A DNA stretch of 64,000 bases from Candidatus Woesearchaeota archaeon (lineage in GTDB: Archaea > Nanobdellota > Nanobdellia > Pacearchaeales > GW2011-AR1), in assembly GCA_964493885.1 (NCBI GenBank), contig CAZBPV010000002.1, positions 15,614-79,613 of the forward strand, written 5' to 3'. The notes under the pieces are model-generated. The model worked only from the letters and a program-made list of their open reading frames with translations. It did not search any database and was not told the DNA's origin. Positions within the stretch are counted from its first letter, which is position 1; the number at the start of each line of letters is the position of its first letter. The translations under genes were made by a program, and so were the position numbers. Of the stretch, positions 20,001-56,408 are shown piece by piece.

Positions 20001-22187
20001 GAGGATTTCACAAAAGAAGAATTTTTGAGTTCAATGAATAACGGGCATCTTTATTCAACACAAGGGCCAACAATGAATTCAGAGTTTACTCTTTATTGCG
20101 ATGATGGAGAAAGCTATTATATGGGAGAAATAGCTAATTGCACTGAAATCCTTGTTAATGCAACAATCTCTGCAACAAATTCTTCTTATAAACTTCAAAA
20201 TATTTCTTTAATAAAAGATGGGGTTTCTTTAAGTGTTAAAAATGACTGTCCTGCAAGCCAGAACTGCACTTTTAATTATTCTGAAAATGTTTCATCTTCT
20301 GGGTATTATAGATTAGAAGCATGGGATTCTAATAACAAACAAATTTGGAGCAATCCAATTTGGATTACAAAGTTTGTTCCAAAGATAAATATTACTATTA
20401 ATGTTCCTTTAAATGGTTCTACAACAACAGAGCATTTCCCTGAGTTTAATGTAACTTTAGATAGAGTTGCAGAAGCTTTATGGTTTAATCATAAGGGGGC
20501 TAATCAAACTTTATGTGTTAATTGTTCTAGTTATTATGGAAATGGAGGGAATCTTCAAGAAGGGGTTCATAATTTCAGAGTTTATGCAAATAACAGCAAT
20601 AACGAAGTTTCAACTGCACTTTCTACATTTACAATTGATTTTAATAAGACTTATTATGAGAATTTTTCAAATAATTTTTCAATTAGTAGTATTACAAATG
20701 CTTTTTGGAATTCAAATAAGATAAGTTTAGCTACAAATGAAACTTCTGGGAATATTACTATTAAAAACATGGTTGCTGTGAATAATCTTAGCAGTCTTAG
20801 AATTATTTGGACAGAAAATAATACTGAAAATGCAAGAGGAGAAGGGCAATTAAATCCAGTAAGATTTTTTTACAAGTTTAGAGACGACTCTTGGAGTGAA
20901 TTAATTAATGGCTCTGAAATTTCGGGATTAAATACAAATAATTTAAGCATGAAATTTGAGTTTGATAAAAATAATTATACTTCTATAGACTTACTGAATT
21001 TCAGATTAACCTGGACTGAATTTACAATACCTTTAATTTCAAATGTTAGTGAATCAACAACAACTTCTAGTGCAACAATTTCATGGGCTACTGATACTGC
21101 GTCTAATTCAAGCGTGGAATATGGAACATCTTTTTCACTAGGAAGCATACAAAGCAATTCTTCTGATACAACAAGTCATTTAGTTACTTTAACTGGATTG
21201 AGTCCAAATACTGTTTATTATTATAAGATAAAAAGTTGCACCATAGACAGCTGTTCAGATTATCCTCAGTATCCTTATCCATTGGATTCATTCACAACTC
21301 AGCAAATTCCTGGAGGAAATAATGGCGGTGGCGGAGGAGGAGGCAGTGGAGGTGGAAACACAACTACTACAATAATTAATACAACTAATATTACTGGAGT
21401 TCATGCAATGTCTTCTTCAACCATAGACAATATAGTTGCTAAAGATGGAGATATAAAGAGTATTTCATGGAAAGTGAAGAATACAGGAACTTTATTTTTG
21501 AATAATTGTGTTTTAAAGGCTGTTGGAGATAAATTTTCTTGGTTGAGTGTTGGAGAGATATTTAATTTAGCTGCAGGACAAGAGCATGATTTTGTATTTA
21601 AGATTAATGTTCCAAAAGGAACTAGTTCTGGAGTGTATTCTATGGGAGTTGAATTAGTCTGCAAAGAACTTAGTGAAAGAGCTGATTTTAATGTTGAAAT
21701 TACTAAATCAAAATTAAATTTTGATTTAATCAAAGTAGAGAGAGCAGGGGGCAATGAAATTATTATTAAATATAATTTAAAGGAAATTTCTGGAATTAAT
21801 CAGGAAGTTAATCTGCAGTTCATGATATTTGATGATAAGAATAATAAAATATTAGAAGCTATTGATATAAGAGAGCTTAAGGCATTTGAAGAAGGAGAAT
21901 TTACATTAAGAATCAAGGTTGATAAAAGATTAAAAGGAAATCTTAATCTTCTTGTTAATTTAAACTCAGAAACCTACTCTGGTTTTATTCAGGAGGATGT
22001 TTTCCTTGCTCCAATGAGCGGATTTTCAATATTTGGTGAAACTTTAGAGGGTTCAGATATAGTTCTTTGGGGAGCAATAGCTTTTGTTTCTGGCATTATC
22101 TTGTTTTTTATTGCAAAGCAAATAATTAATAGTAGAAAGGCAAAAAGAAGAATGAATAATATTATTTATTTAGGATATCATAGATAA
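17016..22187 (+). CDS. giant surface protein (1723 aa): 2x LamG/ConA-like lectin domains, Ig-like modules, PHP metallo-phosphoesterase domain, FN3, CARDB-like domain and a C-terminal TM anchor
   Basis: Signal MKRGILLILILLISFALVAG. LamG pattern twice (AYWRLNE...FDGVNDYVNLG and SAYYFDGVNDYIIVADS). PHP motifs IHTHTTNSDG...AVTDHN...AAHPNW...SDDMH. FN3 ATISWATDTASNSSVEYG...LTGLSPNTVYYYKI. Gly linker, terminal TM and KAKRR. A GAAGGAGGA SD-like element lies upstream. Confidence 0.8.
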   Translation: MKRGILLILILLISFALVAGLSFSDLGEEDFSGTFNNTFYNLSGFVQVGNLSINGSEITEMIGNENGLIAYWRLNESSWNGTSGEVKDVLGNRNGTSISGANTTSGLFARAGSFDGVNDYVNLGNIFSSPQDNGTISFWFKTSDTNGTILSQDATGWNNLDTLFGIGQQNVIACTAGYLCFETHGPSTSLSRGVNSGVIVNDNEWHFAVLSFNNTGYYLYLDGDLKNTVAYDGGIWGSNGSQDIYMGQRQLMSYYSGNVDEVAFWNRDLNSTEIQELYQKGSNSSGEQPTTGTYESEVKDAGGISNWTDISWNGLSSGNPLGKANIIFLRMNGNAYDENGINNGTVSGAVNASGKYDSAYYFDGVNDYIIVADSSSLDLTSDFSLGAWVNMSSLPSGVNEWRGIITKGGQGDGLGTDHNYFLAIDNAIWGTGVGITFGYENSAGANFDTRYQINSTYLNAWHHIVGVFNDSVNTMTLYINGIQVSQDSDVTATPTTQSEPLFIGRNMNGSSNIYYFNGTIDDAFITNKSLSLTQIQEIYSNNDYSSSSEGGSSNLQIQVRTSNDNSSWTDYTSYYNYPSSLNISNSRYIQYRAYFADVLAKLYNLTINYLSLGAVSVSLDSPADNYLTNEYNINVTCSASASAGLVNITPYYSKFDWGQSEPARSVSGTSNTTIFTLNEISSTINWNCYACDVEGNCSFASQNRTIIGDILSPEITLISPANNNLSTERSNNFVFNVTDNRAGTLNCTLYVDSEAKASNSSVFSGVSTILSASLSNGNYSWWINCSDGINYNISETRNISVNNTGNIIWAKTQIHTHTTNSDGSSSPATVISTYKNADYNILAVTDHNVITNCSNYTNLSENFICIQSEEWTPGSGTYLKHVLRINISSHVAVGTSTDAEVQNAMTTAKNEGGFAVAAHPNWSSTLWNTSSLINFQNYSHMEIYNGVIERLSPSPYAVQKWDVVLQSGKRMFGVASDDMHVISSDFGKGWIMVYMEDFTKEEFLSSMNNGHLYSTQGPTMNSEFTLYCDDGESYYMGEIANCTEILVNATISATNSSYKLQNISLIKDGVSLSVKNDCPASQNCTFNYSENVSSSGYYRLEAWDSNNKQIWSNPIWITKFVPKINITINVPLNGSTTTEHFPEFNVTLDRVAEALWFNHKGANQTLCVNCSSYYGNGGNLQEGVHNFRVYANNSNNEVSTALSTFTIDFNKTYYENFSNNFSISSITNAFWNSNKISLATNETSGNITIKNMVAVNNLSSLRIIWTENNTENARGEGQLNPVRFFYKFRDDSWSELINGSEISGLNTNNLSMKFEFDKNNYTSIDLLNFRLTWTEFTIPLISNVSESTTTSSATISWATDTASNSSVEYGTSFSLGSIQSNSSDTTSHLVTLTGLSPNTVYYYKIKSCTIDSCSDYPQYPYPLDSFTTQQIPGGNNGGGGGGGSGGGNTTTTIINTTNITGVHAMSSSTIDNIVAKDGDIKSISWKVKNTGTLFLNNCVLKAVGDKFSWLSVGEIFNLAAGQEHDFVFKINVPKGTSSGVYSMGVELVCKELSERADFNVEITKSKLNFDLIKVERAGGNEIIIKYNLKEISGINQEVNLQFMIFDDKNNKILEAIDIRELKAFEEGEFTLRIKVDKRLKGNLNLLVNLNSETYSGFIQEDVFLAPMSGFSIFGETLEGSDIVLWGAIAFVSGIILFFIAKQIINSRKAKRRMNNIIYLGYHR

Positions 22188-22448: not shown

Positions 22449-23672
22449 CTATTTAATTCTCTTTTTTAATCTTCTTTTATATTCCTTAAAGATTCTTTTC
22501 TTTCTTATTAAATATCTTTTTGATTCTAGTAATGCAATAATATTTAGTGTAATGTAGCATCCAACAACAAATGCAATTAATTTTGCAATTATTTCTCCAT
22601 AGTTATCAATAAAATCTTGGATAATTTTTGGGGTTGCTGATTTTTCTTCAACTTTAAACCACTTGCTTGCACTAGCTGTTCTTGAGTCATAAGTTACTTT
22701 AATATAAAATAAATAATTTCCTTCCTCAATGCTATCTGGAAGTTTAAATGTTTTAGTCATGCTTAGTGATGTTCCAATTATTAGAATTTGTTTTTCTCCA
22801 AAAAGGATATTTCCATCTATATCTTTAATTACATATTCTATTTGAACATCTGTTTCTCCTGCTTTTCCAATGTTATAAAAAGTAACTTGTGAGATTAATT
22901 CATCGCCTGGTTGGTAAATTGTAGGTTCTTTTGGAATTTCAAGAGTAACATCAAATAAAAAATCTAAGGATTCTACCTCTATGTAGAATAATATTTCTTT
23001 TTGAGAATCATCTGTAATAATAATTACTCTTTCTAGATAAACTTCTGGGATTTTATTTTTATCAGCTGAAAAGGTGAATGTTACTTCCTTTGCTTCTCCT
23101 GGATTTAAGTAAAATTCTTTATCACTTATCCTTATTAATAAGTCAGTTAAATCCTTGTCTTCTATTCTAATATTTGTTCCTGTTGCTTGATTATTTTTTA
23201 TTAATAATCTTATTTCTTTTGTCTCTGTTTGTTTTAGTGTTACTGGAATTTTTTCTTCACTAATAGTTATATTTTCTTTTTCAACTATTACTTCTCTTCC
23301 TCTCCCACCTCCGCCCGTAGATACTTGCTGAACAGTAAAAGTAACATTATCAGACAATACTGTTCCATTGCTTATATTTCCATATAAATAAAGTGTATGC
23401 TGTCCTACACTTGCTTGAAAGTAAAGAGAGGTGTTTATTGTTATGTTTGCAGTATTATCTAAATTATACCATATTGTATTAATTAAATTTGAATTATAAT
23501 CTAAAAGAATATACTCATTTTCTTCATAAGTTGTATTTTGAGGGCTTACTAGGTTTAGATAGGGATTATTTGAGACTACACTTACTGAAACTCCTGTTTC
23601 TTGGCTTGTGCTTGCGTTTATTGCTGTTAATAATAGAATTAATAAAATTCCTATGAAATACTCTCTTTTCAT
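22449..23672 (-). CDS. secreted membrane-anchored surface protein (407 aa)
   Basis: Signal peptide MKREYFIGILLILLLTAINAS, a GGGGRGRE linker, CARDB/Ig-like beta-rich repeats, and a C-terminal TM plus basic tail. Confidence 0.6.
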   Translation of the reverse strand: MKREYFIGILLILLLTAINASTSQETGVSVSVVSNNPYLNLVSPQNTTYEENEYILLDYNSNLINTIWYNLDNTANITINTSLYFQASVGQHTLYLYGNISNGTVLSDNVTFTVQQVSTGGGGRGREVIVEKENITISEEKIPVTLKQTETKEIRLLIKNNQATGTNIRIEDKDLTDLLIRISDKEFYLNPGEAKEVTFTFSADKNKIPEVYLERVIIITDDSQKEILFYIEVESLDFLFDVTLEIPKEPTIYQPGDELISQVTFYNIGKAGETDVQIEYVIKDIDGNILFGEKQILIIGTSLSMTKTFKLPDSIEEGNYLFYIKVTYDSRTASASKWFKVEEKSATPKIIQDFIDNYGEIIAKLIAFVVGCYITLNIIALLESKRYLIRKKRIFKEYKRRLKKRIK

Positions 23673-23721
23673 AACACAAAAAGAAAAACAAAGTATTTAA
23701 ATTTATTTTTTAATTAGGAAT

Positions 23722-24237
23722 TTATCTTTTTTTCTTATTTTTAAGAAGAATCCATAACATTGCTACTAAGATTAGTATTGCAATTATTAGAGCAACAATC
23801 ATTCCTGTGCTTGTTTCTGCAACTGCTTCGCCTGCTATTACATCAAAAGCTATTGTCATCCCAGTTCCCATTGAAATTCCTTGAGTATCTTCTTGAACTG
23901 TTTTTAACTCAACTTTAACTGTCTTGGTTTCTCCAGGAATTGCATCTTTTGAAACTGAAATCTTTAATGGGACTGTAGTATTAGAAGTTCCGGATTTAAC
24001 TAAAAAAGTATCTTCAGAAAGAGAAGTTACATCATTTCCTTCAATAAGAAATGCTTTAACCTCTACATCTTCTTCTCCAATCATGTTTTGTAGATTTAGA
24101 TTAACTGTTTTTGTTTCCCCTCTATCCATAACAAGGGGATTTTCATCCCAGTAAGGAGAACTGACTCCAAAAGCACTTGTTAAAGAGATTAATAGAATTA
24201 TAGATACTATACTTAGTATAATATTCTTGATTTTCAT
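23722..24237 (-). CDS. small secreted membrane-anchored protein (171 aa)
   Basis: Signal MKIKNIILSIVSIILLISLTSA, a single beta-sandwich-like body, and a C-terminal TM MIVALIIAILILVAMLWILL followed by KNKKKR. Confidence 0.6.
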   Translation of the reverse strand: MKIKNIILSIVSIILLISLTSAFGVSSPYWDENPLVMDRGETKTVNLNLQNMIGEEDVEVKAFLIEGNDVTSLSEDTFLVKSGTSNTTVPLKISVSKDAIPGETKTVKVELKTVQEDTQGISMGTGMTIAFDVIAGEAVAETSTGMIVALIIAILILVAMLWILLKNKKKR

Positions 24238-24270: not shown

Positions 24271-27200
24271 TTATTTCTTGGTTCTATTATATATTGTCCA
24301 GATATTACGCTGGTCTCTACTTAGTAAATCTGCAATTTCTGAGAACTTCATGTCTTTTTCTTTTAAATAAACAACAATCGCCTCAAAAATTGTTAATTCT
24401 CTGTTTTTGAAAATTGAAGTTGGTATATGAACAAGGGTTTTACTTATTTTTAATTTCTCAGGCATTTTTATTTTAGATTTATTATATGCTGTCCAGATTG
24501 TTCTATCATCTCTGTTTAATAATAATGCAATTTCATGATAAGTTAATTCAAGATTTTCTTTAAGATATTTAACAATAGCTTCTAATCCTCCAATTTTATC
24601 TGTGAAAATACTTACTGGAATAGATAAATCATCTACAATTATCTTTCTCTTTTTCTTTTTTGCAGTTGAAATCATTACAAGGCTTAATATTACTTTGATT
24701 AGCCAGCTTCCATATCCTTGTGTTGAATAAGTCTGAGATGAAACATCCCCTACTTCATTTATGCAATAGTATAATTGTTCTTGTCCGATTCCCCCTCCAA
24801 GGCTTAGGTTTCCTGCTTGGAGAATTACTCCTGTAATGTTTGTGTCAGTTGCATTCTGAAGCCGAGTTCCTGCACAATCATCTGCTGTTCCTATTGAGAA
24901 ATTCTCAGCAGCAAGATACTCACTTGCATTTGTTTCTCCGAGAAGATTTAGTGCATTTATTGCAATTTTATCTGTCATGTTGTAGTTTCCTGTATTATTA
25001 ATAATCACTGGGTCATTTGTTGCTGTTTGATTAGATGCGCTGGCATTTACATTAAAAGTAATATTGCCTGGAGATATTACTATTGCTTGCAATAAATTAT
25101 ATGTAAAATATGTTAAATCATTAATAGTCTCATTTTCATAAATATCTTTTCCAGAAACACTTACATTCCAGTTACCTGCTGAGTCAAAATACCACATATT
25201 TATTGTGCAGGAATAATTTGCACAAGTAGAGTTAATGTCTGAAACTAATATGCAGGAATTATTTTCACGTGTTGCTTGCCCTGCTCTTGTGAAATTGGCT
25301 TTAACACTTGTGTCATTTAAATCTGCAACACCATTTTCATCGCACATTGTTGTGTAGAATGTTATTGGAGTTGAACTTGCTTCTATTGGATTTGTATTTG
25401 CAATTGGAGAAATGTAAGTTATATTCGGAGCTATATTTACGGGAGCAGTGTAATTAATTTTCAAACTTCTATTTGTATCTGCCCAGTCAGTTTGGCTGGA
25501 ATTGTCATAAGCAAGGCAATTCCAGGTATAATTTCCATTAATTAATGATAAATTCCAGCTTGTTGAGTTGCTTGTTCCAGAAATTGCTGTTGTCTGATTT
25601 AATGCAAAGCTTGAGTTTGTTGAGTCTGTTATATATAAACTCATATTTACTAATTGGTAATCATCAGTTGCATTGCATTGGAATGTAATATTGACTGGAG
25701 AGGAGGAATCATTGTAATAGTTATCTAAAGGAAGACTAAGAGTTACATTTGGAGAGTTGTCAAGAATAGTATAGCTTATATTTAATTCAGGCCATCTTGT
25801 GCTGTTAATATTATCACTGCTTGCAAAGCTTGTTGTTCCGCTTCCTGCAGTTGTTGTTCTTAAAAGTATACCATAATTTACAAGAGTTCCATTTACCATA
25901 TTTTGAACTAAATCTGTTAAATTCCAGTCAAAGAAAGTATTGATTGCTGTGATAGTTGTGTTATTCCAGATATTTGAGTCAAAATCTCCTCCAGAAATAT
26001 CCCAGCTTGCAGTTCCACTTCTATTATTCCATGTTGCACCATTTCCTGTTATTGTTCCTGTGCCTGTTCCTTCTGTCCATGTACTATTAACTCTGTAAAC
26101 ATTTACTATTGCATCAGAGCTTCCTTTTGCAGTTGCATACAATGTTAAAATTGCTGAATCAATTATTGCATTTGCTGGAATACTTGAAACATTAAATTCT
26201 ATTAGAATCCTTCTTGCATCATCTCCTCTTATATCAAGTGTTGAATCTGCACCATAATTAGCATTTGGAGTGCCTTGAACAATATGAGTATCTTTTCCAA
26301 GAGTTGCATTTGGCTGCAGAACCTCAATAAATCCCGGGTCTGTTGAGTTTATAGTTATATTATATGTTTCTCCTGGAGTTAATAATTTCGCAGTTGTCCA
26401 ATTTAATTCATCGTTGCAAAGAAGAGTAGTCATATTCCAGTCAAGGCATTTGTATAAGTAATTTCCTTGAGTGGCATTCATGCTTAGAGTCATATTATCA
26501 AAAATCATGCATTCTGCAGATATTGCATAACTGTTATTTCCAATTGTTTCATTTGTATTGCTTTCAAAAGTAATATTACTGCATCCACTGATGTTAAATC
26601 CTGAAATAAATATATTCTCTACATCTTCATCAGAGATGGTGATATTCAAGTCATAAATTCCATTTCCGTAATCTGTTGCAATTGTCACGCTATAATTTAA
26701 TTCACTGCCTTCATTGGAAGTTAGGTTTATGTCTGGAGCTGCGTCAATAGTTATGTTTCTGATTTCGCTTCTGCCCCAATTTTCAATTTCATCCATTGCG
26801 TATATGCTGTAGGTATAAGAATTATCAGCCAAGCCAGTTTTGTTTAAATACAAGGAAATATTATTATCTGAGCCAATTACATTTAGGCTTTCATTTCCTC
26901 CATTCCATTGCAACAAGTAATCATCTATTGAATTAGCATCTGTGGCAGTTGCATTTATGTATATCCCATTTTGATTTAGTGTTGAATTGTTATCTGGTGT
27001 TGGGGATACAAACAAAATAATTGGAGCAGTATTGTCTATTGTGAAATTTCCTCCAAGAGTATATGATACATTATATAATTCAACAGTATTATTTTCAAAG
27101 ACAGTTATTCTTAAAGAATAATTTTCATCAGCATATTGACTTGTATTCCATGCATAACTTGTTGAGCTTGCATTTCCATAATTACTTATAATTGTTGCGT

Positions 27201-30200
27201 TATAACTCAAATCAGGATTAAGAAGAGTTATGTTGAACTGCAAGCTGTCTCCTTCTACATCATAAACATTGCTCCAGATTATATTATAAATCCCGGAAAT
27301 AACTTCATTAGGGGTTGGGGTGAGCAGGAATGGTGTTGTTGGAGCGTCGTTTATTTCTTCAATTGTAAAGTTAGTTTTTTCAGTATTATTTACTGCTCCA
27401 AGAGTATCATTTGCAATAATTGTAATATTATAATCTCCTTGTATTGAGGTATCTGTAAAGCTTCCAACATAAAGTAAAGGATTTATTCCTGTTTCTAAAT
27501 CATCCCACTCAACACTTATATTCCCCCAACCTGTTTCTGTTGATTCAGTCTCCAAAGTAATAAACAGTCCCGGATAAACATCTATTTCACTTTCTGTTTC
27601 CTCAAACCAAGAACTATCTGAGTTATTCCAAGTATAAAATGTGAAGGTATTATTGACTCTTTTTATTCTGAATTTTCCTTCTGTGTCATTGGTTTCTCTT
27701 TCTGAAATATAATCTGAGATATTTCCGTCATTTACAAACACATCATAGTTTCTTCCATAACCTGTCCAGTTTCCAATAGACATAAATATATTTTTAGAAG
27801 CATTTATTGAAGATGAAATCTCAGTTAATTTAAACAGCATGGCATAATCAATTCCTGATTCATTAGTGATATTAAATGAAACATTCATGTCAAAATCTCC
27901 AATTGTTTGCTGAATCATTACAAGACTGCAATAAGTATCTGTGTTTGGAGTCCCATTTCCACTTATTGAAGTATATGCTTTGTCTGTTATTGTTGTATCA
28001 ATGTTGGCTGTACAGATTTGATTGCTTTCAATAGACTCATTTTCAACTTTCCAGACAATCCCCATTGTATTAAAGTTAAAATTATCTTTTTGAGGGGGTT
28101 GATAAAGAGAAATATTCACTGCTGTGCTATTCGGGTAAGTTATCTCTGCCATTGCAGAGCTTATTCCATCACTGTCAGTTATATTTGCCATTATTGCAAT
28201 ATAACTATCTTCTTGTCTTACAGTGTTTGCTTTAGGGTAGAGGATTACCACGCTTGCGGGAGTTGGAGTGGTTAAATTGAATGTTACGCTTGTTGAGTTG
28301 AAATTTCCAAGAGTATCATTTGCATAGGCATAAATTGTATTGCTTCCTTCACTGAAGTTATAGTACAAAGATGAATTATAAGTCAGATTTGCAGTTCCAT
28401 TATTCCACCAAATATTAATTGCATCAGAATTATTTGTAATATTTATTAAAATTGGATTAGAAATATAATTTTGATTTAATGGAGAAATAAATACAATATA
28501 TGGGGGGGTTGCATCTAATGTTATTGTATAATTTCCTTCATTGCTATAATTTGAATTTCCATTTGCATCAGAACCAAGACAATTCCATTTGAATGAATTG
28601 TCATAAGGTAAATTATAAGTCCAGTTTGTTTGATTGAACACTCCTGTTAGGTTTGTTGTGTTAGAATGTATAAGATTATTGCTAGAATTCCATATTTTTA
28701 ATGTGAGGTTTGCAATTTCTATATTTGAGATATTGCATGAGAATGTCTGGCTTGATTGATTTGTTAAGGTATTATTTGCAGGAGAGATTAAATGGACTTC
28801 TGGAGAAGTTATGTCCTGAGCAGTTATTGTGTAGACTATTGTTCCACTTAAATCAGTCAGAGGCATTGTTATTGTTTTTTCTGTTGTGTTAATTATAACA
28901 TCATTAGTTATATCTGTCGTATTCCCATTTGTTGTTTTTGTTACATTAAATTCCCAATCATCAGGCACGCCGTAAGCAGAATAATTTGTCCATGTTGTTA
29001 CATTATATAACATAACCTGTGAAATGAAAATACTTGATAAAGTTATATTCCATCTTTTATCTGACGTTGTGTTATAGTAAATTGTTTCATTGTTTCTGAT
29101 TGCATCTTTAATACCTGCCTGTAAAGTTTCATTTATAGTTGTATTGCCTGGAATAACCTCGGTATTCCAGCTAATCTGATTGTTTGTATAGGTTGTGAGA
29201 TTATTCGGCGCACCTGCAGAAGTATTATCACTTGCCAATAACTGTCCTGTTGAATTCCAGACATAATTTGTTCCATTTATCCTACTATTTGGATAATCTG
29301 CAAGTATCTGCGGCTTGAAGAAATAATGAGTATATCTTTCTGAGGACTCTGTATTGTTGAATGTTATCCACCATTTTCTTGTAACATTTATATTTTGGTT
29401 AGAACCAATAGTATAATTATTTTCAATCTGTGCCCATGTTGCAATTGAACTTAGCATTTGTGTTGGTTCAGCATGCTTTATTTCTATGTTTGCTGGTTGT
29501 CCTGTGTAGTTGTAGTAAACTGTAACCTGCTCAGAAACAGCAGAAGAGCAATTTAAATGCAAGTGCATTACTAAATAATTATTTTGCGAGATTGTGTAAT
29601 TTTCAGTCATATTCTGCTCAATCAAAGTTGGAGTGTTTGCTGAAATTAATACAGGCGAGTCGCAGTGCTCTATAAGTGGATTGAGATTAAAGTTATAGAC
29701 CTGCATGCACAAATATGGCTGGCATGTATCATTGCTGACAGAAACATTCAATCGCAAAGTATGCAATCCAAGCATATTGTAATCTTTCATGAAAGAGCAG
29801 TTTGTTCCTGCTCCGCAAAAATAAAACATCTTGCTTAATTCATTTTCTCCAATGCTTGCGCTTATGGCTTCTGTGAAATTATAGACATTTCCTTGCGTAG
29901 ACTCTTTTCTCAGCCAGGTTGTCGTGTAATTATTAGCTGAGCCGTAACTTCTGTTTTCCCATTCCCATAAATACGCAAATAACCAGACATTTGTGGATGT
30001 GTTGTTGGATGAAGAGTTATAATTGGTTTTTGAGCATGTCACATTAAAATTAACAACATCATACATTAGATAATTACTCACATTCCCTGTGTAGTTTCCA
30101 GAACTTTCATTGTATGTTAAAGAGGTTATATCGCTTGTCTCGTCATTTGTAACATTACAGATTGCTCCGCTAATTGGCTGTCCTAGGCTATCTAGGTAAC

Positions 30201-33123
30201 GCGCTTGGAATGGAATATAAATATCATATCCAGCTCCGGGACTTCTTCCTTGAGGATACATTGTTTGATTTACTGAAAATGCAAGGCTTGTTGGTATGCT
30301 CTGCACTACAAAACTCTGAACATCTGTCTGATTGCTGTTTCCCGCAGTATCATTGCAATATAATGTCCATGTGTTGCTTCCTTCATTTGAAGTTATGTTG
30401 GTAAAGTTTATTCCAGCGACAACAGCAGAACTATTTATAGTTCCATTATTATACCAACAAAATCCTGGATTGTCATCGCTGTAAGTATAATTTAATGCAG
30501 AGACATTTACAGAATAGGTTGTATTTTGAGGATAGGTTATGTTGATTTGTGGGGAAGTTATATCTGCTGTATAATTTATTTTCAAACTCCTGTTTGCATC
30601 TGCCCAGTCAGACTGAGAGGCATTGTCATAAGTAAGACAATTCCAGGTATAATTTCCATTAATTAATGATAAATTCCAGCTTGTTGAGTTGCTTGTTCCA
30701 GAAATTGCTGTTGTCTGATTTAATGCAAAGCTTGAGTTTGTTGAGTCTGTTATATATAAACTCATATTTACTAATTGGTAATCATCTGTTGCATTGCATT
30801 GGAAGGTAACATTGACTGGGGAGGAGGAATCATTGTAATAATTATCTTCTGGCAGACTTAAGGTTACATTTGGAGAGTTATCTACTGCAGCTCCACAGCT
30901 TCCGTCCCATATTGTTCCATTAATGTAATACTGCTTTAATGTTGTTATATTTGAGGAATTTGAATAAGCAACTATAAATGTTCCTGGGCAGATTTGCTGT
31001 CCTGTTACAGATTCTTTGGCTACAACACTCATTAAATGGTAGTTTGCATTTTCTTCTGTGTCAATAGTAAATGTGGCTATGTTTGTTCCATTTCCATAAT
31101 AAGTTGCTCCAACAATATTTCCTGCAGTTGCATTATACCATATTAAAACAAAAGAATCATTTGCATAATTTTCTGATTTTATAGCAGCAACATCCAACCA
31201 TGTTCCTGTAGTTGGGCCTGCATTTGTTTCTATTATTGTATTTTCTATTAGTGAAGTTCCGTTTTTGTAGATTATAGTATATCCAATATCTTGGTCATTT
31301 GATAAGTAAAATGCATAAACAAACTTGTCATTATCTAGTCCAGCAATACTTAACCTTGAGTCTGTTGCTGCTGATGGGTTAACATTTACTCTAGCAACAG
31401 CTTCTCCTCCCGTTTCATTATAAATATTGAATGCCAAATCATTTACTCCCTGGTCAAACCAGCCATAAACAAAACTTGTAGAATTTATCGCAGATACACT
31501 AATAGTGTCTGTGAGAGCATCATTGGCTGCTGTTGTTGGATCTACAAGAATTGAGCCTGTCAGATTGTTTCCTGAATTGTCAAATATCTTTAATTGAGCA
31601 TCATCTGTTGAATCATCTCTCCATCCTATAACAAACCTATCCCCCATTTGAGTAATAGACAAATCAGTGAAATGATTATCTGCTGTTGCTTGCGCAATAT
31701 TGTCATCAACAATAATATCTCCAGTTAGTTTGTCTCCATTAATATCATAAATTGCAAGAGTAATATTTGCAATATTATTTGCGGTGTCATGGTCATTTAT
31801 CCATGCAACAACAAAATGAGTTTGATTTATTGCAGATATAGCAACTCTTGGGTAAAGGGGCTGGTTTGTTGAATCGATAGTGCTGTTTGATAAAATAGTT
31901 CCATTTGTGTTATAAACTCTGAAATAAACACTTTTATCTTCAGAGGCATAAATCATTGCAAAAGTAGTATTATCTAGAGGGGTTGTGTCTATGTCTAAGG
32001 AAGAGTTTTGAGAAACTGATTCCTGAAGCAACTCTCTTATAAGAGTTTCATTTTCTTCTTCAACAGGAGTTTCTGGCTCTTGTTCTGTCGGGATTTCTTC
32101 TGGTTCTTCAGGCGCTTCTTCGGGGTATTTTATGATGCTATACCTTATTTCATCTAGATTTATTGTTGCTGAATCAATTTCTATTCTTAATGTGTATGAA
32201 GATTCATTTAAATTAAGAGATTCAAGATTGCAGGATTCTTCGCAGATATCTGTGAAAGTTCTTGTTCTTATTTCAGTTTCAGGTTCTGAACTTGGTTCTT
32301 GTTCTGAATCAGGAACTTCTGTTTGATTTTCTTCTTCAACAGGAGTTTCATTGATTTCTTCTGCGGGGATTGTTGGAATTTCTGGTTCAAGTTCTTCTAT
32401 AGGTATGTCTCTTGTTCCGTCACTTTCTGTATCTTCTTGGGTTTCTTCAACTTCTCCTGTTACTTCATCATCTTTTACTTTTTCTTCTTTATCTTTTTCC
32501 TCTTTCTCGTCTTTTGTTTTATTTTCAGCTACTAATCCTGTGATTGTTCTTGTGCCTGTTTTTAATGTCGAGGTGTCAAGAATTAAGATATTATTTAAGT
32601 AGATTTTTGCTTCGCCGTCACCTTGTATTGCCCCTGATAATCTTACTGAATTTAATTGTCCTGGGTTTTCCAATTGCAATTCATATTCTGAATTCTCAGA
32701 GAAATTAATATTTAGACCTTGAGTATAAGGGGTTATAATTATTTGAGAAGCATTTTCATCTTGAGTAAAAAAACCAACAAAGTTGGAGTTGTTGAATATC
32801 AAGGAGATTAAGAATAATCCAACAATGCATGCAAGCAAAAATATTAGATGAGTTTTTTTCCCAACATGGCTATGATGTTGCTTTATTCTTTTGTGGCATT
32901 CAAGTGATTCAAAATGATAAAAATGAATCCATTCTTCTATTGTTCTCCCATCTCTTTTATGATGAATTATTTCTAGATATCTTGCATAAGAAATTTGTTT
33001 TTTTCTGTAAGCTTCTTTTAGCTTTTCCAGGTAATTAATTAAGTCTCTTTTTCTGGTTTCAGACTCATGTTTTCTTCCATGCAAATGATGCAATTCAGAC
33101 ATAGATAATTTCTTGCTAATCAT
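24271..33123 (-). CDS. giant bitopic protein (2950 aa): cytoplasmic His/Lys-rich N-terminus, TM1, acidic linker, beta-propeller-like repeats, many Ig-like modules, DNRLRE-like domain, TM2, and a cytoplasmic tandem HTH tail
   Basis: Uninterrupted 8.85-kb ORF. TM1 LIFLLACIVGLFLISLIF (about 32794-32850). Repeats of the FVVAW/FVIGW/FVYGW type. DNRLRE-like stretch GKDTHIVQGTPNANYGADSTLDIRGDDARRILIEFNVSSIP...AILTLY. TM2 WLIKVILSLVMIS (about 24667-24720). Two IP.SIF...EAIV.YLKE...EIA.LL.RD.R.IWT.Y repeats at 24274-24666. Confidence 0.8.
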   Translation of the reverse strand: MISKKLSMSELHHLHGRKHESETRKRDLINYLEKLKEAYRKKQISYARYLEIIHHKRDGRTIEEWIHFYHFESLECHKRIKQHHSHVGKKTHLIFLLACIVGLFLISLIFNNSNFVGFFTQDENASQIIITPYTQGLNINFSENSEYELQLENPGQLNSVRLSGAIQGDGEAKIYLNNILILDTSTLKTGTRTITGLVAENKTKDEKEEKDKEEKVKDDEVTGEVEETQEDTESDGTRDIPIEELEPEIPTIPAEEINETPVEEENQTEVPDSEQEPSSEPETEIRTRTFTDICEESCNLESLNLNESSYTLRIEIDSATINLDEIRYSIIKYPEEAPEEPEEIPTEQEPETPVEEENETLIRELLQESVSQNSSLDIDTTPLDNTTFAMIYASEDKSVYFRVYNTNGTILSNSTIDSTNQPLYPRVAISAINQTHFVVAWINDHDTANNIANITLAIYDINGDKLTGDIIVDDNIAQATADNHFTDLSITQMGDRFVIGWRDDSTDDAQLKIFDNSGNNLTGSILVDPTTAANDALTDTISVSAINSTSFVYGWFDQGVNDLAFNIYNETGGEAVARVNVNPSAATDSRLSIAGLDNDKFVYAFYLSNDQDIGYTIIYKNGTSLIENTIIETNAGPTTGTWLDVAAIKSENYANDSFVLIWYNATAGNIVGATYYGNGTNIATFTIDTEENANYHLMSVVAKESVTGQQICPGTFIVAYSNSSNITTLKQYYINGTIWDGSCGAAVDNSPNVTLSLPEDNYYNDSSSPVNVTFQCNATDDYQLVNMSLYITDSTNSSFALNQTTAISGTSNSTSWNLSLINGNYTWNCLTYDNASQSDWADANRSLKINYTADITSPQINITYPQNTTYSVNVSALNYTYSDDNPGFCWYNNGTINSSAVVAGINFTNITSNEGSNTWTLYCNDTAGNSNQTDVQSFVVQSIPTSLAFSVNQTMYPQGRSPGAGYDIYIPFQARYLDSLGQPISGAICNVTNDETSDITSLTYNESSGNYTGNVSNYLMYDVVNFNVTCSKTNYNSSSNNTSTNVWLFAYLWEWENRSYGSANNYTTTWLRKESTQGNVYNFTEAISASIGENELSKMFYFCGAGTNCSFMKDYNMLGLHTLRLNVSVSNDTCQPYLCMQVYNFNLNPLIEHCDSPVLISANTPTLIEQNMTENYTISQNNYLVMHLHLNCSSAVSEQVTVYYNYTGQPANIEIKHAEPTQMLSSIATWAQIENNYTIGSNQNINVTRKWWITFNNTESSERYTHYFFKPQILADYPNSRINGTNYVWNSTGQLLASDNTSAGAPNNLTTYTNNQISWNTEVIPGNTTINETLQAGIKDAIRNNETIYYNTTSDKRWNITLSSIFISQVMLYNVTTWTNYSAYGVPDDWEFNVTKTTNGNTTDITNDVIINTTEKTITMPLTDLSGTIVYTITAQDITSPEVHLISPANNTLTNQSSQTFSCNISNIEIANLTLKIWNSSNNLIHSNTTNLTGVFNQTNWTYNLPYDNSFKWNCLGSDANGNSNYSNEGNYTITLDATPPYIVFISPLNQNYISNPILINITNNSDAINIWWNNGTANLTYNSSLYYNFSEGSNTIYAYANDTLGNFNSTSVTFNLTTPTPASVVILYPKANTVRQEDSYIAIMANITDSDGISSAMAEITYPNSTAVNISLYQPPQKDNFNFNTMGIVWKVENESIESNQICTANIDTTITDKAYTSISGNGTPNTDTYCSLVMIQQTIGDFDMNVSFNITNESGIDYAMLFKLTEISSSINASKNIFMSIGNWTGYGRNYDVFVNDGNISDYISERETNDTEGKFRIKRVNNTFTFYTWNNSDSSWFEETESEIDVYPGLFITLETESTETGWGNISVEWDDLETGINPLLYVGSFTDTSIQGDYNITIIANDTLGAVNNTEKTNFTIEEINDAPTTPFLLTPTPNEVISGIYNIIWSNVYDVEGDSLQFNITLLNPDLSYNATIISNYGNASSTSYAWNTSQYADENYSLRITVFENNTVELYNVSYTLGGNFTIDNTAPIILFVSPTPDNNSTLNQNGIYINATATDANSIDDYLLQWNGGNESLNVIGSDNNISLYLNKTGLADNSYTYSIYAMDEIENWGRSEIRNITIDAAPDINLTSNEGSELNYSVTIATDYGNGIYDLNITISDEDVENIFISGFNISGCSNITFESNTNETIGNNSYAISAECMIFDNMTLSMNATQGNYLYKCLDWNMTTLLCNDELNWTTAKLLTPGETYNITINSTDPGFIEVLQPNATLGKDTHIVQGTPNANYGADSTLDIRGDDARRILIEFNVSSIPANAIIDSAILTLYATAKGSSDAIVNVYRVNSTWTEGTGTGTITGNGATWNNRSGTASWDISGGDFDSNIWNNTTITAINTFFDWNLTDLVQNMVNGTLVNYGILLRTTTAGSGTTSFASSDNINSTRWPELNISYTILDNSPNVTLSLPLDNYYNDSSSPVNITFQCNATDDYQLVNMSLYITDSTNSSFALNQTTAISGTSNSTSWNLSLINGNYTWNCLAYDNSSQTDWADTNRSLKINYTAPVNIAPNITYISPIANTNPIEASSTPITFYTTMCDENGVADLNDTSVKANFTRAGQATRENNSCILVSDINSTCANYSCTINMWYFDSAGNWNVSVSGKDIYENETINDLTYFTYNLLQAIVISPGNITFNVNASASNQTATNDPVIINNTGNYNMTDKIAINALNLLGETNASEYLAAENFSIGTADDCAGTRLQNATDTNITGVILQAGNLSLGGGIGQEQLYYCINEVGDVSSQTYSTQGYGSWLIKVILSLVMISTAKKKKRKIIVDDLSIPVSIFTDKIGGLEAIVKYLKENLELTYHEIALLLNRDDRTIWTAYNKSKIKMPEKLKISKTLVHIPTSIFKNRELTIFEAIVVYLKEKDMKFSEIADLLSRDQRNIWTIYNRTKK
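25449..25757 (-). repeat. intragenic repeat copy A (Ig-like module NSPNVTLSLP...KINYTA)
   Basis: About 309 bp similar to 30570-30878; 25517-25665 is identical to 30638-30786 (149 bp, compared base by base). Confidence 0.85.
30570..30878 (-). repeat. intragenic repeat copy B
   Basis: See copy A; the offset is 5121 bp (a multiple of 3, so the frame is preserved). Confidence 0.85.
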
Positions 33124-33457
33124 TACTTAATATGTGTGTAAAATTATTTATAAATCTACCTATTATATATGTATAGAGAGAAAAAGGTAAGTTTGATTAC
33201 CTATTATGTATGTAATTATTATTTAAATACTTTTCTATATTAAAAATGTTACCTATTATGTATGTATTAAACTAATAATTCTCTAGAGTTGTTGTATTAT
33301 TTACTTATTAAAAATGTATTAAACTTTTTTATTGTACTTATTATGTATGTTTTTATTAAATGATTATTTTTTATTTGTTATTTAATACTTACTATGTGTG
33401 TACAATAAATGATATCTAATTTTCTCTTCGCTGATTATTTTACTTATTATGTGTGTA
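33124..33457. repeat. array of eight direct copies of the 17-nt motif TACYTAYTATRTRTGTA in a divergent intergenic region
   Basis: Copies start at 33124, 33157, 33198, 33250, 33302 (degenerate), 33335, 33386 and 33441, all in the same orientation. Confidence 0.8.
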
Positions 33458-56384: not shown

Positions 56385-56408
56385 GTTCTCTTTCAGGATA
56401 TTTTACTT

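What the first reader, a model, noticed from the sequence alone, without database searches (positions are those of the whole stretch)
24271..33123. 2950-aa protein with two TM segments and a cytoplasmic tandem helix-turn-helix tail: candidate membrane-tethered transcription factor fused to a giant ectodomain
The ORF is uninterrupted. Reading the translation gives about 90 aa of His/Lys-rich N-terminus, then TM1, then about 2700 aa of ectodomain. The ectodomain holds an acidic linker, six or more beta-propeller-like blades, Ig-like modules and a DNRLRE-like carbohydrate-binding domain. After TM2 comes a 131-aa tail made of two ~50-aa repeats: SIPVSIFTDKIGGLEAIVKYLKENLELTYHEIALLLNRDDRTIWTAYNKSK and HIPTSIFKNRELTIFEAIVVYLKEKDMKFSEIADLLSRDQRNIWTIYNRTKK. 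Their pattern resembles sigma-70 region 4 / LuxR-type HTH units. With both termini cytoplasmic, the protein could couple an extracellular binding event to DNA binding, perhaps after proteolytic release. I do not know of a described archaeal example of this architecture at this scale.
Basis: partly seen in the sequence, partly recalled or inferred. Interest (0 to 1): 0.7.

Follow-up and report, generated by a model that had tools for sequence, protein, structure and literature searches.

The report
Giant surface protein with DNA-binding tail
A 2,950-residue cell-surface protein of a tiny symbiotic (DPANN) archaeon carries two DNA-binding modules on the inner side of the membrane; these most likely control its own gene through eight copies of a conserved 17-base site, and it belongs to a large family that I could not find described.

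Summary
ORF 24271-33123(-) is uninterrupted and encodes a cytoplasmic N-domain, a strong TM1, a ~2,700-aa sequon-rich ectodomain (seven blade-like repeats, DNRLRE domain), a short hydrophobic segment plus KKKKRK, and a tail of two sigma-70-region-4-like HTH repeats (AF2 pLDDT >90).

The fusion is not an artefact. At least 59 other loci from Woese-/Pace-/Nanoarchaeota MAGs have the same C-terminal junction (C-module, short TM, basic cluster, HTH tail), in ORFs of up to >3,600 aa (4,280 aa in the protein database). Complete examples also share the N-domain. Soluble 165-195-aa stand-alone paralogues also exist.

The new result concerns the "repeat array" at 33124-33457. It is eight same-strand, helically phased copies of a 17-bp asymmetric motif, TACAYAYATARTARGTA. 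One copy abuts the ATG and the next lies just upstream of the TATA box. The same arrangement precedes nearly every family gene, fused or stand-alone. In a reverse test, 50 metagenome loci were picked by the motif pair alone, and 44 had a family gene immediately downstream.

Best reading: a membrane-tethered autoregulator. DNA binding, its sign, and the membrane span of the atypically short TM2 are inferred, not shown. I rate it a new variant of transmembrane transcription regulators; the literature search found no description.

The parts
24271..33123 (-). Giant ORF, 2950 aa: N-domain, TM1, ectodomain, C-module, TM2, tandem HTH tail
   Evidence: the same C-terminal junction is found in 59 other loci, and the complete examples also share the N-domain
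32848..33123 (-). Conserved N-terminal cytoplasmic helical domain (aa 1-92), His/Lys-rich in this subclade
   Evidence: AF2 pLDDT ~95, helices 8-40, 46-54 and 62 onward running into TM1. 153 clusters at 50% identity carry it, always at the N-terminus of proteins up to 4,280 aa. It is coupled to the HTH tail in complete proteins.
32791..32847 (-). TM1 (aa 93-111, HLIFLLACIVGLFLISLIF)
   Evidence: Kyte-Doolittle 19-residue window 2.81; part of the long AF2 helix
31984..32538 (-). Acidic Glu/Asp/Pro-rich linker (aa 196-380)
   Evidence: 62 D+E in 185 residues
30883..31962 (-). Seven ~50-aa blade-like repeats (aa 388-747), pattern F-[VI]-x-[AG]-[WY]...[IF]-[YF]-[DN]-x-x-G
   Evidence: read from the sequence and found by regex; no Pfam match; propeller fold not tested
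25777..26295 (-). DNRLRE / disaggregatase-related domain (aa 2277-2449)
   Evidence: NF033679 E 3.5e-24; PF06848 E 2.9e-13
24706..25443 (-). Conserved C-terminal ecto module (aa 2561-2806), ending ...SQTYSTQGYGS
   Evidence: Hit in 73 of 85 loci, 66% identical to L006. Also occurs as ~300-aa secreted stand-alone paralogues that end at GSWTIAY*.
24661..24705 (-). TM2 candidate (aa 2807-2821, WLIKVILSLVMISTA); short, with an internal Lys
   Evidence: Kyte-Doolittle 15-residue window 1.99 only. Family pattern W-x-I-[RK]-I plus 8-12 apolar residues in 60 proteins. Low-confidence AF2 helix.
24643..24660 (-). Poly-basic cluster KKKKRK (aa 2822-2827), a positive-inside stop-transfer signal
   Evidence: Conserved as RRKKKK-like in nearly all 60 fusion proteins
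24472..24624 (-). HTH repeat 1 (aa 2834-2884); recognition helix NRDDRTIWTAY
   Evidence: AF2 short strand plus three helices, pLDDT >90; sigma region 4 superposition; Sigma70_r4_2
24274..24429 (-). HTH repeat 2 (aa 2899-2950); recognition helix SRDQRNIWTIY
33124..33140 (-). Operator copy 1 (gene strand TACACACATATTAAGTA); abuts the ATG, lies between TATA and start
   Evidence: In 33 of 46 clusters the proximal copy ends 0 or 1 nt before the ATG.
33147..33154 (-). TATA-box candidate TTTATAAA, 31 nt upstream of the A of the ATG (implies a leaderless mRNA)
   Evidence: A TATA-like box lies between the last two copies in 36 of 41 clusters, and starts 14-15 nt before the proximal copy in 26 of them.
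33157..33173 (-). Operator copy 2; ends 2 nt upstream of the TATA box (BRE position)
33198..33214 (-). Operator copy 3
33250..33266 (-). Operator copy 4
33302..33318 (-). Operator copy 5 (degenerate, 3 mismatches to the window consensus)
33335..33351 (-). Operator copy 6
33386..33402 (-). Operator copy 7
33441..33457 (-). Operator copy 8; ~20 nt from the TATA-like box of the divergent class-II aaRS gene (ATG 33508)
23722..24237 (-). Conserved downstream gene p171 (signal peptide, Ig-like body, C-terminal TM plus KNKKKR)
   Evidence: Homologue 1-3 kb downstream of the tail in 62 of 85 loci
22449..23672 (-). Conserved downstream gene p407 (signal peptide, C-terminal TM, basic tail)
   Evidence: Homologue downstream in 63 of 85 loci; shares a module with the giant's aa 1541-1617

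Best explanation
The ORF encodes a member of a large DPANN family (Woesearchaeota / Pacearchaeota / 'Nanoarchaeota' MAGs) of two-pass giant surface proteins. I found no description of this family.

The variable, heavily N-glycosylatable ectodomain sits outside the cell. Two conserved pieces sit inside: an N-terminal ~90-aa helical domain, and a C-terminal pair of sigma-70-region-4-like helix-turn-helix repeats held 5-60 residues from the membrane.

One tandem-HTH unit most likely binds one asymmetric 17-bp operator, TACAYAYATARTARGTA. The half-sites TACA and TAAGTA lie about one helical turn apart. The two recognition helices differ (R-x-x-R-T-I-W and R-D-Q-R-N-I-W), which fits an asymmetric site.

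Operators sit on one face of the DNA, with start-to-start spacings of ~32, 42 or 52 nt. They bracket the TATA box of the gene's own promoter, which is probably leaderless. One copy lies between TATA and ATG, and one lies over the BRE position. The window carries eight copies.

The protein would therefore be a membrane-tethered autoregulator. From operator position it is most likely a repressor, so that the amount or state of giant protein in the membrane feeds back on its own transcription. Soluble stand-alone paralogues, and the tails of paralogous giants, would share the same operators.

Shown: the architecture, its conservation, the HTH fold, and the exclusive motif-to-gene association with its geometry. 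Inferred: DNA binding by the tail, its specificity for this motif, the sign of regulation, the cytoplasmic location of the tail, and any extracellular signal.
For: Architecture is real and conserved.
- 487 relatives of the tail occur in GTDB species representatives.
- 59 other loci carry the same junction. 28 are complete ORFs of 1,194-3,401 aa, and four run beyond 3,450 aa.
- N-domain proteins reach 4,280 aa. About 33 of the 52 that are 1,000 aa or longer visibly end in the tail; the rest break off mid-ectodomain, which I read as fragments.
- A complete 589-aa mini-version (P0149) has the same topology.

The tail is the most conserved part. Against the nearest relative L006 it is 87% identical, compared with 66% for the C-module and 61% for the N-domain. 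The ectodomain is not collinear.

Fold.
- AF2 gives mean pLDDT 85.5 and pTM 0.72. Each repeat is a short strand plus three helices.
- Single repeats superpose on SigR, SigC, SigE and Taq sigma region 4 at 0.7-3.7 A.
- 108 of 126 family members hit Sigma70_r4_2, best E 5.8e-19.
- R72 is invariant, and R75 and W78 are over 90% conserved, in the recognition helix.

Operator.
- 8 copies lie in the window against ~1 expected.
- At up to 1 mismatch there are 86 hits in 1.2 Mb, all on the gene strand. Column-permuted controls average 0.9.
- The pattern derived from the window alone gives 97 hits in 83 other loci, against 3.6 in controls.
- The motif precedes giant genes and stand-alone tandem-HTH genes alike.
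- Reverse test: 50 metagenome loci were chosen only by the motif pair. 43 had an N-domain gene and 1 had a stand-alone HTH gene immediately downstream.
- The geometry relative to TATA and ATG is fixed, and the spacings are helically phased.
- Motif blocks are invariant while spacers diverge among the window, L128 and L123.

Topology.
- Sequons per 100 aa: 7.5 in the ectodomain, 0.8 in the N-domain, 1.4 in the tail.
- A poly-basic cluster follows TM2 in nearly all members.
- The stand-alone paralogues inspected show no N-terminal hydrophobic segment or signal peptide.
Against: - No experiment or DNA-protein model links the tail to the motif. The link is by co-occurrence only.
- TM2 is atypically short, ~12-16 residues from the Trp, with a conserved Arg/Lys. 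Its first residues may be the last beta-strand of the C-module, because secreted paralogues end at GSWTIAY*.
- A tail-less member (L100, ends GAWAVAIIT*) keeps the operator pair. The motif therefore tracks the gene family, not strictly a tail encoded in cis.
- I found no covariation between motif variants and recognition-helix residues; both are nearly invariant.
- The window tail itself scores just under Pfam's gathering threshold (24.6 against 25.7 bits).
- Foldseek finds no whole-tail match at E <= 1e-3.
- The leaderless start and the sign of regulation rest only on spacing rules for archaeal promoters.
Confidence: 0.6

Rival explanations
1. Regulated intramembrane proteolysis. The tail is inactive while tethered. 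A membrane protease cuts within or near TM2, perhaps after an ectodomain event, and the released tail acts as a soluble regulator on the same operators, as in Notch, SREBP or RseA-type pathways.
For: - Soluble stand-alone paralogues show that the domain works untethered.
- TM2 is short and rich in Ser/Thr/Pro/Gly.
- In the window protein the linker from the basic cluster to HTH1 is only ~5 residues, which would force DNA very close to the membrane.
- A rhomboid protease gene lies in the window (45950-46768), immediately after TFE-alpha. The same pair lies near the mini-version in L004.
Against: - No cleavage motif was identified.
- The rhomboid gene is 12 kb away and its linkage is to TFE-alpha, not to the giant gene.
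- Many bacterial and archaeal transmembrane regulators bind DNA without release (PMC10269533).
Confidence: 0.2
2. The operators are read by the soluble stand-alone paralogue or by another factor. The tethered tail, or the N-domain, acts as a membrane decoy or anti-factor that sequesters the soluble regulator. This would be analogous to an anti-sigma factor holding sigma region 4 at the membrane.
For: - The layout N-terminal helical cytoplasmic domain, TM, extracytoplasmic domain copies that of membrane anti-sigma factors.
- The N-domain and the tail are strictly coupled.
- The tail-less L100 keeps its operators.
- Castelle et al. noted 'sigma-70' genes in Woesearchaeota with no anti-sigma partner (PMC8204110).
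Against: - The N-domain model matches only generic helical hairpins and no anti-sigma domain.
- No protein-protein prediction could be run.
- The recognition helices of tethered tails are as conserved as those of soluble forms, which argues that the tails still read DNA.
Confidence: 0.15
3. The phased operator arrays plus tethered tails serve mainly to anchor the gene locus to the membrane. The purpose would be coupled transcription, translation and insertion of a 3,000-aa protein, or DNA positioning, rather than setting the transcription rate.
For: - Arrays have 8 copies at ~52-53 nt (window, L093, L123, L128) and 17 copies at 45 nt (L114). They resemble centromere or iteron arrays more than a simple operator.
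- All copies are on one DNA face.
Against: - Most family members have only two copies, placed exactly around the TATA box. That is the classic position for archaeal repressors and activators.
- Stand-alone soluble paralogues, which cannot anchor anything, have the same promoter.
Confidence: 0.1
4. TM2 does not span the membrane, so the tail is extracellular. There it would bind environmental or host DNA, or serve some other external role.
For: The hydrophobic stretch is only ~12-16 residues and partly overlaps the last strand of the C-module.
Against: - A poly-basic cluster follows directly in almost all members.
- Sequon density in the tail is 1.4 per 100 aa, against 7.5 in the ectodomain.
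- The paralogues inspected are soluble proteins without signal peptides.
- The conserved motif sits at the family's own promoters.
Confidence: 0.05
5. The fusion is an assembly or sequencing artefact, and the tail is really an independent gene.
For: - Many database entries for the tail are short 120-225-aa proteins.
- A Met lies inside TM2.
Against: - The short entries closest to the window start at contig ends or at internal Met codons.
- 59 independent loci carry the identical junction in one frame.
- The Met is not conserved outside the nearest subclade.
Confidence: 0.01

Closest known systems
Transmembrane transcription regulators (TTRs) of the ToxR / CadC / TcpP type; census in Demey et al. 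2023 (PMC10269533)
   Same: One polypeptide joins an extracytoplasmic domain to a cytoplasmic DNA-binding domain across the membrane. These regulators act on promoters while membrane-bound.
   Different: - Known TTRs usually have an N-terminal winged-helix or other DNA-binding domain, one TM, and a sensor of 100-300 aa.
- Here the DNA-binding unit is C-terminal, after a second TM. It is a tandem sigma-region-4-type HTH.
- A second conserved cytoplasmic domain sits at the N-terminus.
- The ectodomain is 1,000 to over 4,000 aa.
- The main text of that census does not mention DPANN. This tail sits at or below Pfam thresholds.
ECF sigma factor with membrane anti-sigma factor (e.g. SigE-RseA, SigW-RsiW, SigL-RslA)
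   Same: - A sigma-region-4-type HTH is held at the membrane.
- The layout N-terminal cytoplasmic helical domain, TM, extracytoplasmic domain matches an anti-sigma factor.
- 108 of 126 family members hit Sigma70_r4_2.
   Different: - No region 2 occurs in any member, so this is not a sigma factor.
- The host is an archaeon with TBP/TFB/TFE; TFB and TFE-alpha genes are in the window.
- The HTH is duplicated and covalently fused.
- No anti-sigma-domain fold was detected.
ArnR / ArnR1 of Sulfolobus, membrane-bound archaeal regulators of the archaellum (own knowledge; archaeal TTRs regulating motility are cited in PMC10269533)
   Same: An archaeal transcription regulator anchored in the membrane that controls a surface structure.
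   Different: ArnR has an N-terminal HTH, C-terminal TMs and no ectodomain. The HTH family is unrelated, and no operator pair brackets its own TATA box.
Notch, SREBP, ATF6 and bacterial regulated intramembrane proteolysis
   Same: A large extracellular or lumenal part is coupled to a cytoplasmic transcription module on one chain.
   Different: Those systems need proteolytic release and a nucleus or a soluble factor. Cleavage is untested here, and prokaryotic DNA can reach the membrane.
Sulfolobus Cbp1 (CRISPR-repeat-binding protein, PDB 2LVS) and the bipartite HTH of Tc3 transposase (1U78)
   Same: These are the best whole-model Foldseek matches (E 0.046 and 0.13). Both are tandem small HTH units on one chain that read an extended or repeated DNA site.
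   Different: Soluble proteins with no detectable sequence relationship. The matches are not significant.
'Sigma-70' family fam00359 reported as prevalent in Woesearchaeota (Castelle et al. 2021, PMC8204110)
   Same: Probably the stand-alone form of this HTH family: sigma-70 annotation, Woesearchaeota, no anti-sigma partner.
   Different: - Identity with fam00359 could not be verified; the supplement search found nothing.
- The text passages on sigma factors that I searched in that paper do not mention the tandem region-4-only nature, the fusion to giant membrane proteins, or the operator.
SPEARE giant surface proteins of Nanohaloarchaeota (own knowledge)
   Same: Giant multi-domain surface proteins of DPANN episymbionts, thought to mediate host interaction.
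   Different: A different lineage and domain set. No cytoplasmic HTH tail or autoregulatory operator is known for them. Not compared here with tools.

Membership tests
Sigma-70 region 4 HTH superfamily (Pfam PF08281 Sigma70_r4_2) | Profile match at or above the gathering score | tested here: inconclusive
   The window tail scores 24.6 bits against a cutoff of 25.7, E 1.9e-5, with two stretches. However, 108 of 126 family members match at E <= 1e-3, best 5.8e-19.
Sigma-70 region 4 HTH superfamily (Pfam PF08281 Sigma70_r4_2) | Three-helix HTH fold that superposes on solved region 4 structures | tested here: met
   AF2 pLDDT >90. Superpositions: 5fgm rmsd 0.7 A over 45 columns, 1rio 1.3 A over 50, 2o8x 1.6 A over 42, 2h27 3.2-3.7 A.
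Functional sigma factor | Region 2 (core-RNAP binding and -10 recognition) present | tested here: not met
   Sigma70_r2 is not among the 25 Pfam families listed for the 126 members (30 families matched and only the top 25 are shown). NCBIfam sigma models match only their region-4 end, far below their cutoffs.
Transmembrane transcription regulator (TTR, as defined in PMC10269533) | At least one predicted TM segment | tested here: met
   TM1 is strong. TM2 is marginal.
Transmembrane transcription regulator (TTR, as defined in PMC10269533) | A predicted DNA-binding domain on the cytoplasmic side | tested here: inconclusive
   The HTH fold is met. The cytoplasmic side is inferred from the poly-basic cluster, the sequon distribution and the soluble paralogues. 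No topology predictor or experiment was available.
Transmembrane transcription regulator (TTR, as defined in PMC10269533) | Sequence-specific binding to target promoters | not testable with these tools
   There is only comparative evidence: the family-specific 17-bp motif around the TATA box.
Membrane anti-sigma factor (ASD / ZAS) | N-terminal anti-sigma-domain fold or H-x3-C-x2-C zinc motif | tested here: not met
   No Pfam hit. Foldseek returns only generic helical hairpins such as HlyD and CdvA, all with E >1. The ZAS motif is absent from the sequence.
DNRLRE domain (NCBIfam NF033679) / disaggregatase-related repeat (PF06848) | Profile match above the curated cutoff | tested here: met
   85.7 bits against a cutoff of 34; 50.3 bits against 33.9.
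Beta-propeller | Repeated four-stranded blades closing a ring | not tested
   Seven ~50-aa sequence repeats at aa 388-747. No Pfam repeat family matches, and no structure model was made of this region.

The most novel reading that the evidence does not exclude
The family is a self-contained contact-to-transcription switch of episymbiotic archaea. Engagement of the giant ectodomain with a host surface, or with its partner proteins p171, p407 and the C-module paralogue, would change how TM1 with the N-domain and TM2 with the tail sit together. The N-domain would act as an in-cis, anti-sigma-like gate on the sigma-region-4-like tail. The tail would then occupy or leave phased operator arrays of 2 to 17 copies. 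These arrays would both set transcription of every giant-protein gene in the cell and hold those loci at the membrane where the proteins are inserted.
Probability: 0.15. Interest if true: 0.9.

Novelty: new variant of a known kind. Interest (0 to 1): 0.8.

Why it matters
- DPANN archaea cannot yet be studied genetically, and almost nothing is known about how they regulate the giant surface proteins thought to mediate host contact. This finding gives a concrete regulator-operator pair, a ~125-aa tail and a 17-bp site, that can be tested in vitro without cultivation.
- It offers an explanation for the orphan 'sigma-70' genes reported in Woesearchaeota. They would be tandem region-4 HTH regulators, often tethered to the membrane, rather than sigma factors.
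- It extends the transmembrane-regulator concept to a C-terminal DNA-binding domain behind an ectodomain of up to ~4,000 aa.
- It identifies a DNA motif conserved across genomes whose tail proteins are only ~45-55% identical. That motif can be used to find these genes and their true start codons in fragmented metagenomes.

Tried and rejected
- PDB sequence search with the family profile returned only one hit, at E 0.33.
- Whole-tail Foldseek gave no match at E <= 1e-3. Only single-repeat superpositions are informative.
- The word-indexed search with the N-terminal 187 aa gave just 2 hits. The exhaustive phmmer scan was needed.
- The Foldseek search with the N-domain model was non-specific.
- Pfam on five ectodomain pieces gave nothing beyond weak Ig-like hits.
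- A search of the Castelle 2021 supplements for fam00359 found nothing, so identity with that family is unverified.
- I looked for covariation between motif variants and recognition-helix residues and saw none, because both are nearly invariant.
- Internal-start idea: the Met in TM2 is conserved only in the nearest subclade, and no operator copy lies inside the gene. It is not supported but not excluded.
- CRISPR-like array: rejected. Spacings are irregular in the window (33-55 nt), and the unit is a promoter-linked 17-mer.
- Motif as a general promoter element: rejected. The other 63.7 kb of the window holds only two hits at 3 mismatches. In the other loci, strong matches (0-1 mismatch, or paired copies) lie almost only upstream of family genes, and the few other hits are 2-mismatch singletons inside coding regions.
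- Literature searches found no description of this architecture.
Full report
**1. The observation**

The ORF 24271-33123 on the minus strand is uninterrupted and encodes 2,950 aa. The window is ~31% GC. It carries several tRNAs that Rfam finds but ARAGORN does not, probably because they contain introns. It also encodes a tRNA-splicing endonuclease, TFB and TFE-alpha, so the organism is an archaeon.

The closest relatives of the protein all come from Woesearchaeota, Pacearchaeota or 'Nanoarchaeota' MAGs.

- A His/Lys-rich N-terminus: 13 His, 13 Lys and 8 Arg in 92 residues.
- A strong TM1 at aa 93-111.
- An acidic linker.
- Seven ~50-aa blade-like repeats.
- A DNRLRE domain at aa 2277-2449 (E 3.5e-24).
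- A hydrophobic stretch followed by KKKKRK.
- Two ~51-aa repeats at the C-terminus.

The weak point is TM2. It has 15 residues with an internal Lys, and it passes only a 15-residue hydrophobicity window.

**2. The tail is a tandem sigma-region-4-like HTH**

On its own the tail hits Sigma70_r4_2 at E 1.9e-5. That is 24.6 bits, just under the 25.7 cutoff. The family as a whole is clearly related, since 108 of 126 aligned members match, with a best E of 5.8e-19. Region 2 is not among the Pfam families listed for these members.

AlphaFold2 with a 126-sequence alignment gives mean pLDDT 85.5 and pTM 0.72, with values above 90 from aa ~2830 to the end. Each repeat is a short strand (IPxSIF) plus three helices.

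Foldseek against the PDB finds no significant whole-model match. Single repeats do superpose on solved sigma region 4 domains:
- SigR, 0.7 A over 45 columns.
- Taq sigma-A, 1.3 A over 50 columns.
- SigC, 1.6 A over 42 columns.
- SigE bound to -35 DNA, 3.2-3.7 A.

The best whole-chain matches are other tandem-HTH DNA binders, Cbp1 and the Tc3 transposase domain. In the recognition helices, R72 is invariant and R75 and W78 are over 90% conserved. The two helices differ consistently across the family: R-x-x-R-T-[IV]-W in repeat 1 and R-D-[QE]-R-N-[IV]-W in repeat 2.

**3. The fusion is a conserved architecture**

A search with the tail alone returns 618 proteins. Most are 120-225 aa. Some are true stand-alone soluble proteins, made of a ~50-70-aa helical N-terminal region plus two HTH repeats. 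Examples are P0053, P0089 and P0111, which sit on contigs of 50-70 kb.

The hits closest to the window are different. They begin with the end of a TM and a poly-basic run, and their genes start at base 1 or 2 of their contigs. They are the cut ends of larger genes.

A search with the last 408 aa finds many proteins that cover the C-terminal ecto module, the short TM, the basic cluster and the tail. One is a complete 589-aa miniature (P0149) with its own cytoplasmic N-terminus and TM1.

In GTDB species representatives the tail has 487 relatives. Among the 80 loci I fetched:
- 28 are complete ORFs of 1,194-3,401 aa that end in the tail.
- Four run past 3,450 aa without reaching their start.
- About ten are stand-alone genes.
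- Some proteins carry four HTH repeats instead of two.

The junction ...SQxYST..G[SA]W-x-I-[RK]-I-(8-12 apolar)-RRKKKK is shared by 60 proteins, counting the window.

The N-terminal cytoplasmic domain is conserved too. An exhaustive phmmer scan finds 153 clusters at 50% identity. The domain is always at residues ~1-125, in proteins of up to 4,280 aa. Of the 52 hits of 1,000 aa or more, about 33 visibly end in the HTH tail. The others stop mid-ectodomain, which I read as fragments.

Against the nearest relative (L006, 2,113 aa) the tail is 87% identical, the C-module 66% and the N-domain 61%. The ectodomain is not collinear. So the two cytoplasmic ends are the constant parts and the outside is variable.

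**4. Topology**

The evidence that the termini are inside and the middle is outside is indirect but consistent:
- Sequon density is 7.5 per 100 aa in the ectodomain and 7.3 in the C-module. It is 0.8 in the N-domain and 1.4 in the tail.
- An intensely basic cluster follows TM2 in almost every member.
- The stand-alone paralogues I inspected have no N-terminal hydrophobic segment or signal peptide.

Against this, TM2 is short throughout the family. Secreted ~300-aa paralogues of the C-module end at GSWTIAY*. The first residues of 'TM2' may therefore belong to the last strand of the ecto module. I treat the membrane span as probable, not shown.

**5. The upstream array is a family-specific operator**

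The 334-nt intergenic region holds eight copies of TACYTATTATGTRTGTA on the plus strand, which reads TACAYACATAATARGTA on the gene strand. The copies lie at 33124, 33157, 33198, 33250, 33302, 33335, 33386 and 33441. The whole window gave 10 matches at up to 3 mismatches, against 0.96 expected.

Copy 1 abuts the ATG. A TTTATAAA box (33147-33154) lies 31 nt upstream of the ATG. Copy 2 ends 2 nt beyond it.

The same arrangement appears upstream of almost every complete family gene in the other loci: motif, ~10 nt, TTTATAAG, ~7 nt, motif, ATG.

Across 46 motif clusters:
- The proximal copy ends 0 or 1 nt before the ATG in 33.
- A TATA-like box lies between the last two copies in 36 of the 41 clusters that have at least two copies.
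- That box starts 14-15 nt before the proximal copy in 26 of them.
- Copy spacings cluster at 32-34, 41-43 and 51-53 nt. These correspond to 3, 4 and 5 helical turns.

Statistics:
- At up to 1 mismatch there are 86 hits in 1.2 Mb, all on the gene strand and none opposite. Column-permuted motifs average 0.9 hits.
- The pattern derived only from the window finds 97 hits in 83 other loci, against 3.6 for controls.

The motif also precedes the stand-alone tandem-HTH genes, which lack the N-domain. Examples are L048, L064, L069, L072, L075, L081, L082 and L085.

As a reverse test I scanned metagenome contigs for the motif pair alone. Of the 50 loci returned:
- 43 have an N-domain gene starting right after the proximal copy.
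- One has a stand-alone HTH gene there.
- Two more start MGRTRIERA... or MGRASL... but are cut too short to score.
- Eight ORFs are complete and match both the N-domain and the tail HMM. Three complete ORFs match only the N-domain: the tail-less L100 and two very short, probably interrupted ones (L094, L106).

An alignment of the window array with those of L128 and L123 shows invariant motif blocks in diverging spacers. L128 is a near-orthologue with the same series of spacings.

The motif is asymmetric. Its information-rich ends, TACA and TAAGTA, lie about one turn apart. That suits two non-identical recognition helices on one chain.

**6. Mechanism**

I commit to the following. The tail is a cytoplasmic, sequence-specific DNA-binding unit that recognises this operator. 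The protein is therefore a membrane-tethered autoregulator.

Position suggests repression. One site lies between TATA and the start, where archaeal repressors block RNAP recruitment. The other lies over the BRE position. This is inference from established rules for archaeal promoters.

Soluble paralogues and the tails of paralogous giants share the operators. L016, L018, and the pair L021/L052 show two giants per contig. The genes would thus form one small regulon.

What the ectodomain senses is unknown. The conserved downstream genes p171 and p407 occur in 62-63 of 85 loci. Together with the secreted C-module paralogue they suggest a shared surface assembly.

Rivals:
- Release by intramembrane proteolysis. 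A rhomboid gene next to TFE-alpha is in the window and in L004.
- A decoy or anti-factor role for the tethered parts.
- Locus anchoring by the arrays. There are 8 copies in this subclade and 17 in L114.
- An extracellular tail.

The artefact hypothesis is excluded.

**7. Comparison and novelty**

Functionally the protein works like a transmembrane transcription regulator of the ToxR/CadC or ArnR kind (PMC10269533). It differs in four ways:
- The DNA-binding domain is C-terminal.
- That domain is a tandem sigma-region-4-type HTH.
- There is a second cytoplasmic domain at the N-terminus.
- The ectodomain is 10-30 times larger.

It is not a sigma factor, because it has no region 2. No anti-sigma fold was found in the N-domain.

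Castelle et al. (PMC8204110) reported 'sigma-70' genes in Woesearchaeota without anti-sigma partners. These are probably the stand-alone form, but I could not verify this.

Five literature searches found no description of the fusion or the operator. I rate it a new variant of a known kind, with high interest, because the regulator-operator pair is directly testable.

Noticed in passing
window 55404-57413: A complete diversity-generating retroelement. The variable repeat (55943-56023) is at the 3' end of a 214-aa ORF (55404-56048). The template repeat is at 56300-56380. The two are 83% identical over 81 nt, and all 14 mismatches fall at template adenines (A>G x8, A>T x6). An Rfam RT-16 RNA lies at 56129-56301 and a reverse transcriptase gene at 56409-57413.
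   Followed up: yes
window 45209-46768; L004 14078-15489: A TFE-alpha gene is immediately followed by a rhomboid intramembrane protease gene, both in the window and in a distant relative's locus. This is a conserved pair linking a basal transcription factor with a membrane protease, and it offers a candidate protease for releasing the tail.
   Followed up: partly
window 30508-30882 and 25387-25761: An internal duplication inside the giant gene. The ~125-aa module DNSPNVTLSLP...SLKINYTA occurs at aa 748 and aa 2455, with 100 of 125 aa and 83% of nucleotides identical. This suggests recent module shuffling in the ectodomain.
   Followed up: partly
window 22449-24237; 62-63 of 85 related loci: The downstream genes p171 and p407 are conserved next to the tail-bearing gene. 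Both have a signal peptide and a C-terminal TM with a basic tail. They also lie near some stand-alone HTH genes. Most loci additionally have a ~300-aa secreted paralogue of the C-module between the giant gene and p171; the window lacks it.
   Followed up: partly
L114 (Ga0224511_10256329), 1-820 of the reverse strand: Seventeen operator copies at a 45-nt period on a 1.5-kb contig, with no family gene within 160 nt downstream. This could be a decoy or centromere-like array, or an assembly artefact.
   Followed up: no
L093 2041-2510; L123; L128 10422-10756: The window's subclade typically has 8 or more operator copies at ~52-53 nt. L093 has 8 perfect copies plus 2 degenerate ones around the TATA box. 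L128 is a near-orthologue with the same series of spacings as the window.
   Followed up: yes
L100 772-4809: A tail-less family member of 1,328 aa, with the N-domain, that ends ...GAWAVAIIT* inside the TM2 position. It keeps the operator pair and the p171- and p407-like downstream genes.
   Followed up: partly
window 32848-33123 (aa 1-92): The His richness of the N-domain is specific to the window's subclade. H13, H54, H55, H70, C76, H77 and H83 are invariant among the three closest sequences. The wider family has Asp/Tyr at these positions instead. This may be a metal site.
   Followed up: no
window 1944-10582 and 17016-22187: Other very large ORFs lie nearby. A 622-aa and a 2,257-aa ORF have no Pfam match and overlap by 4 nt. 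A 1,723-aa LamG/PHP/fn3 protein has a C-terminal TM. None of them has the operator or an HTH tail.
   Followed up: partly
window 1543-1657, 12005-12100, 35809-35903, 51838-51963, 52847-52958: Five tRNA genes are found by Rfam but not by ARAGORN, probably because they contain introns. A tRNA-splicing endonuclease gene lies at 37210-37725.
   Followed up: no
P0242 (protein database): A 1,125-aa database entry is 100% identical to the first 125 aa of the window protein. The same or a near-identical organism has been assembled before, but with this gene truncated.
   Followed up: no
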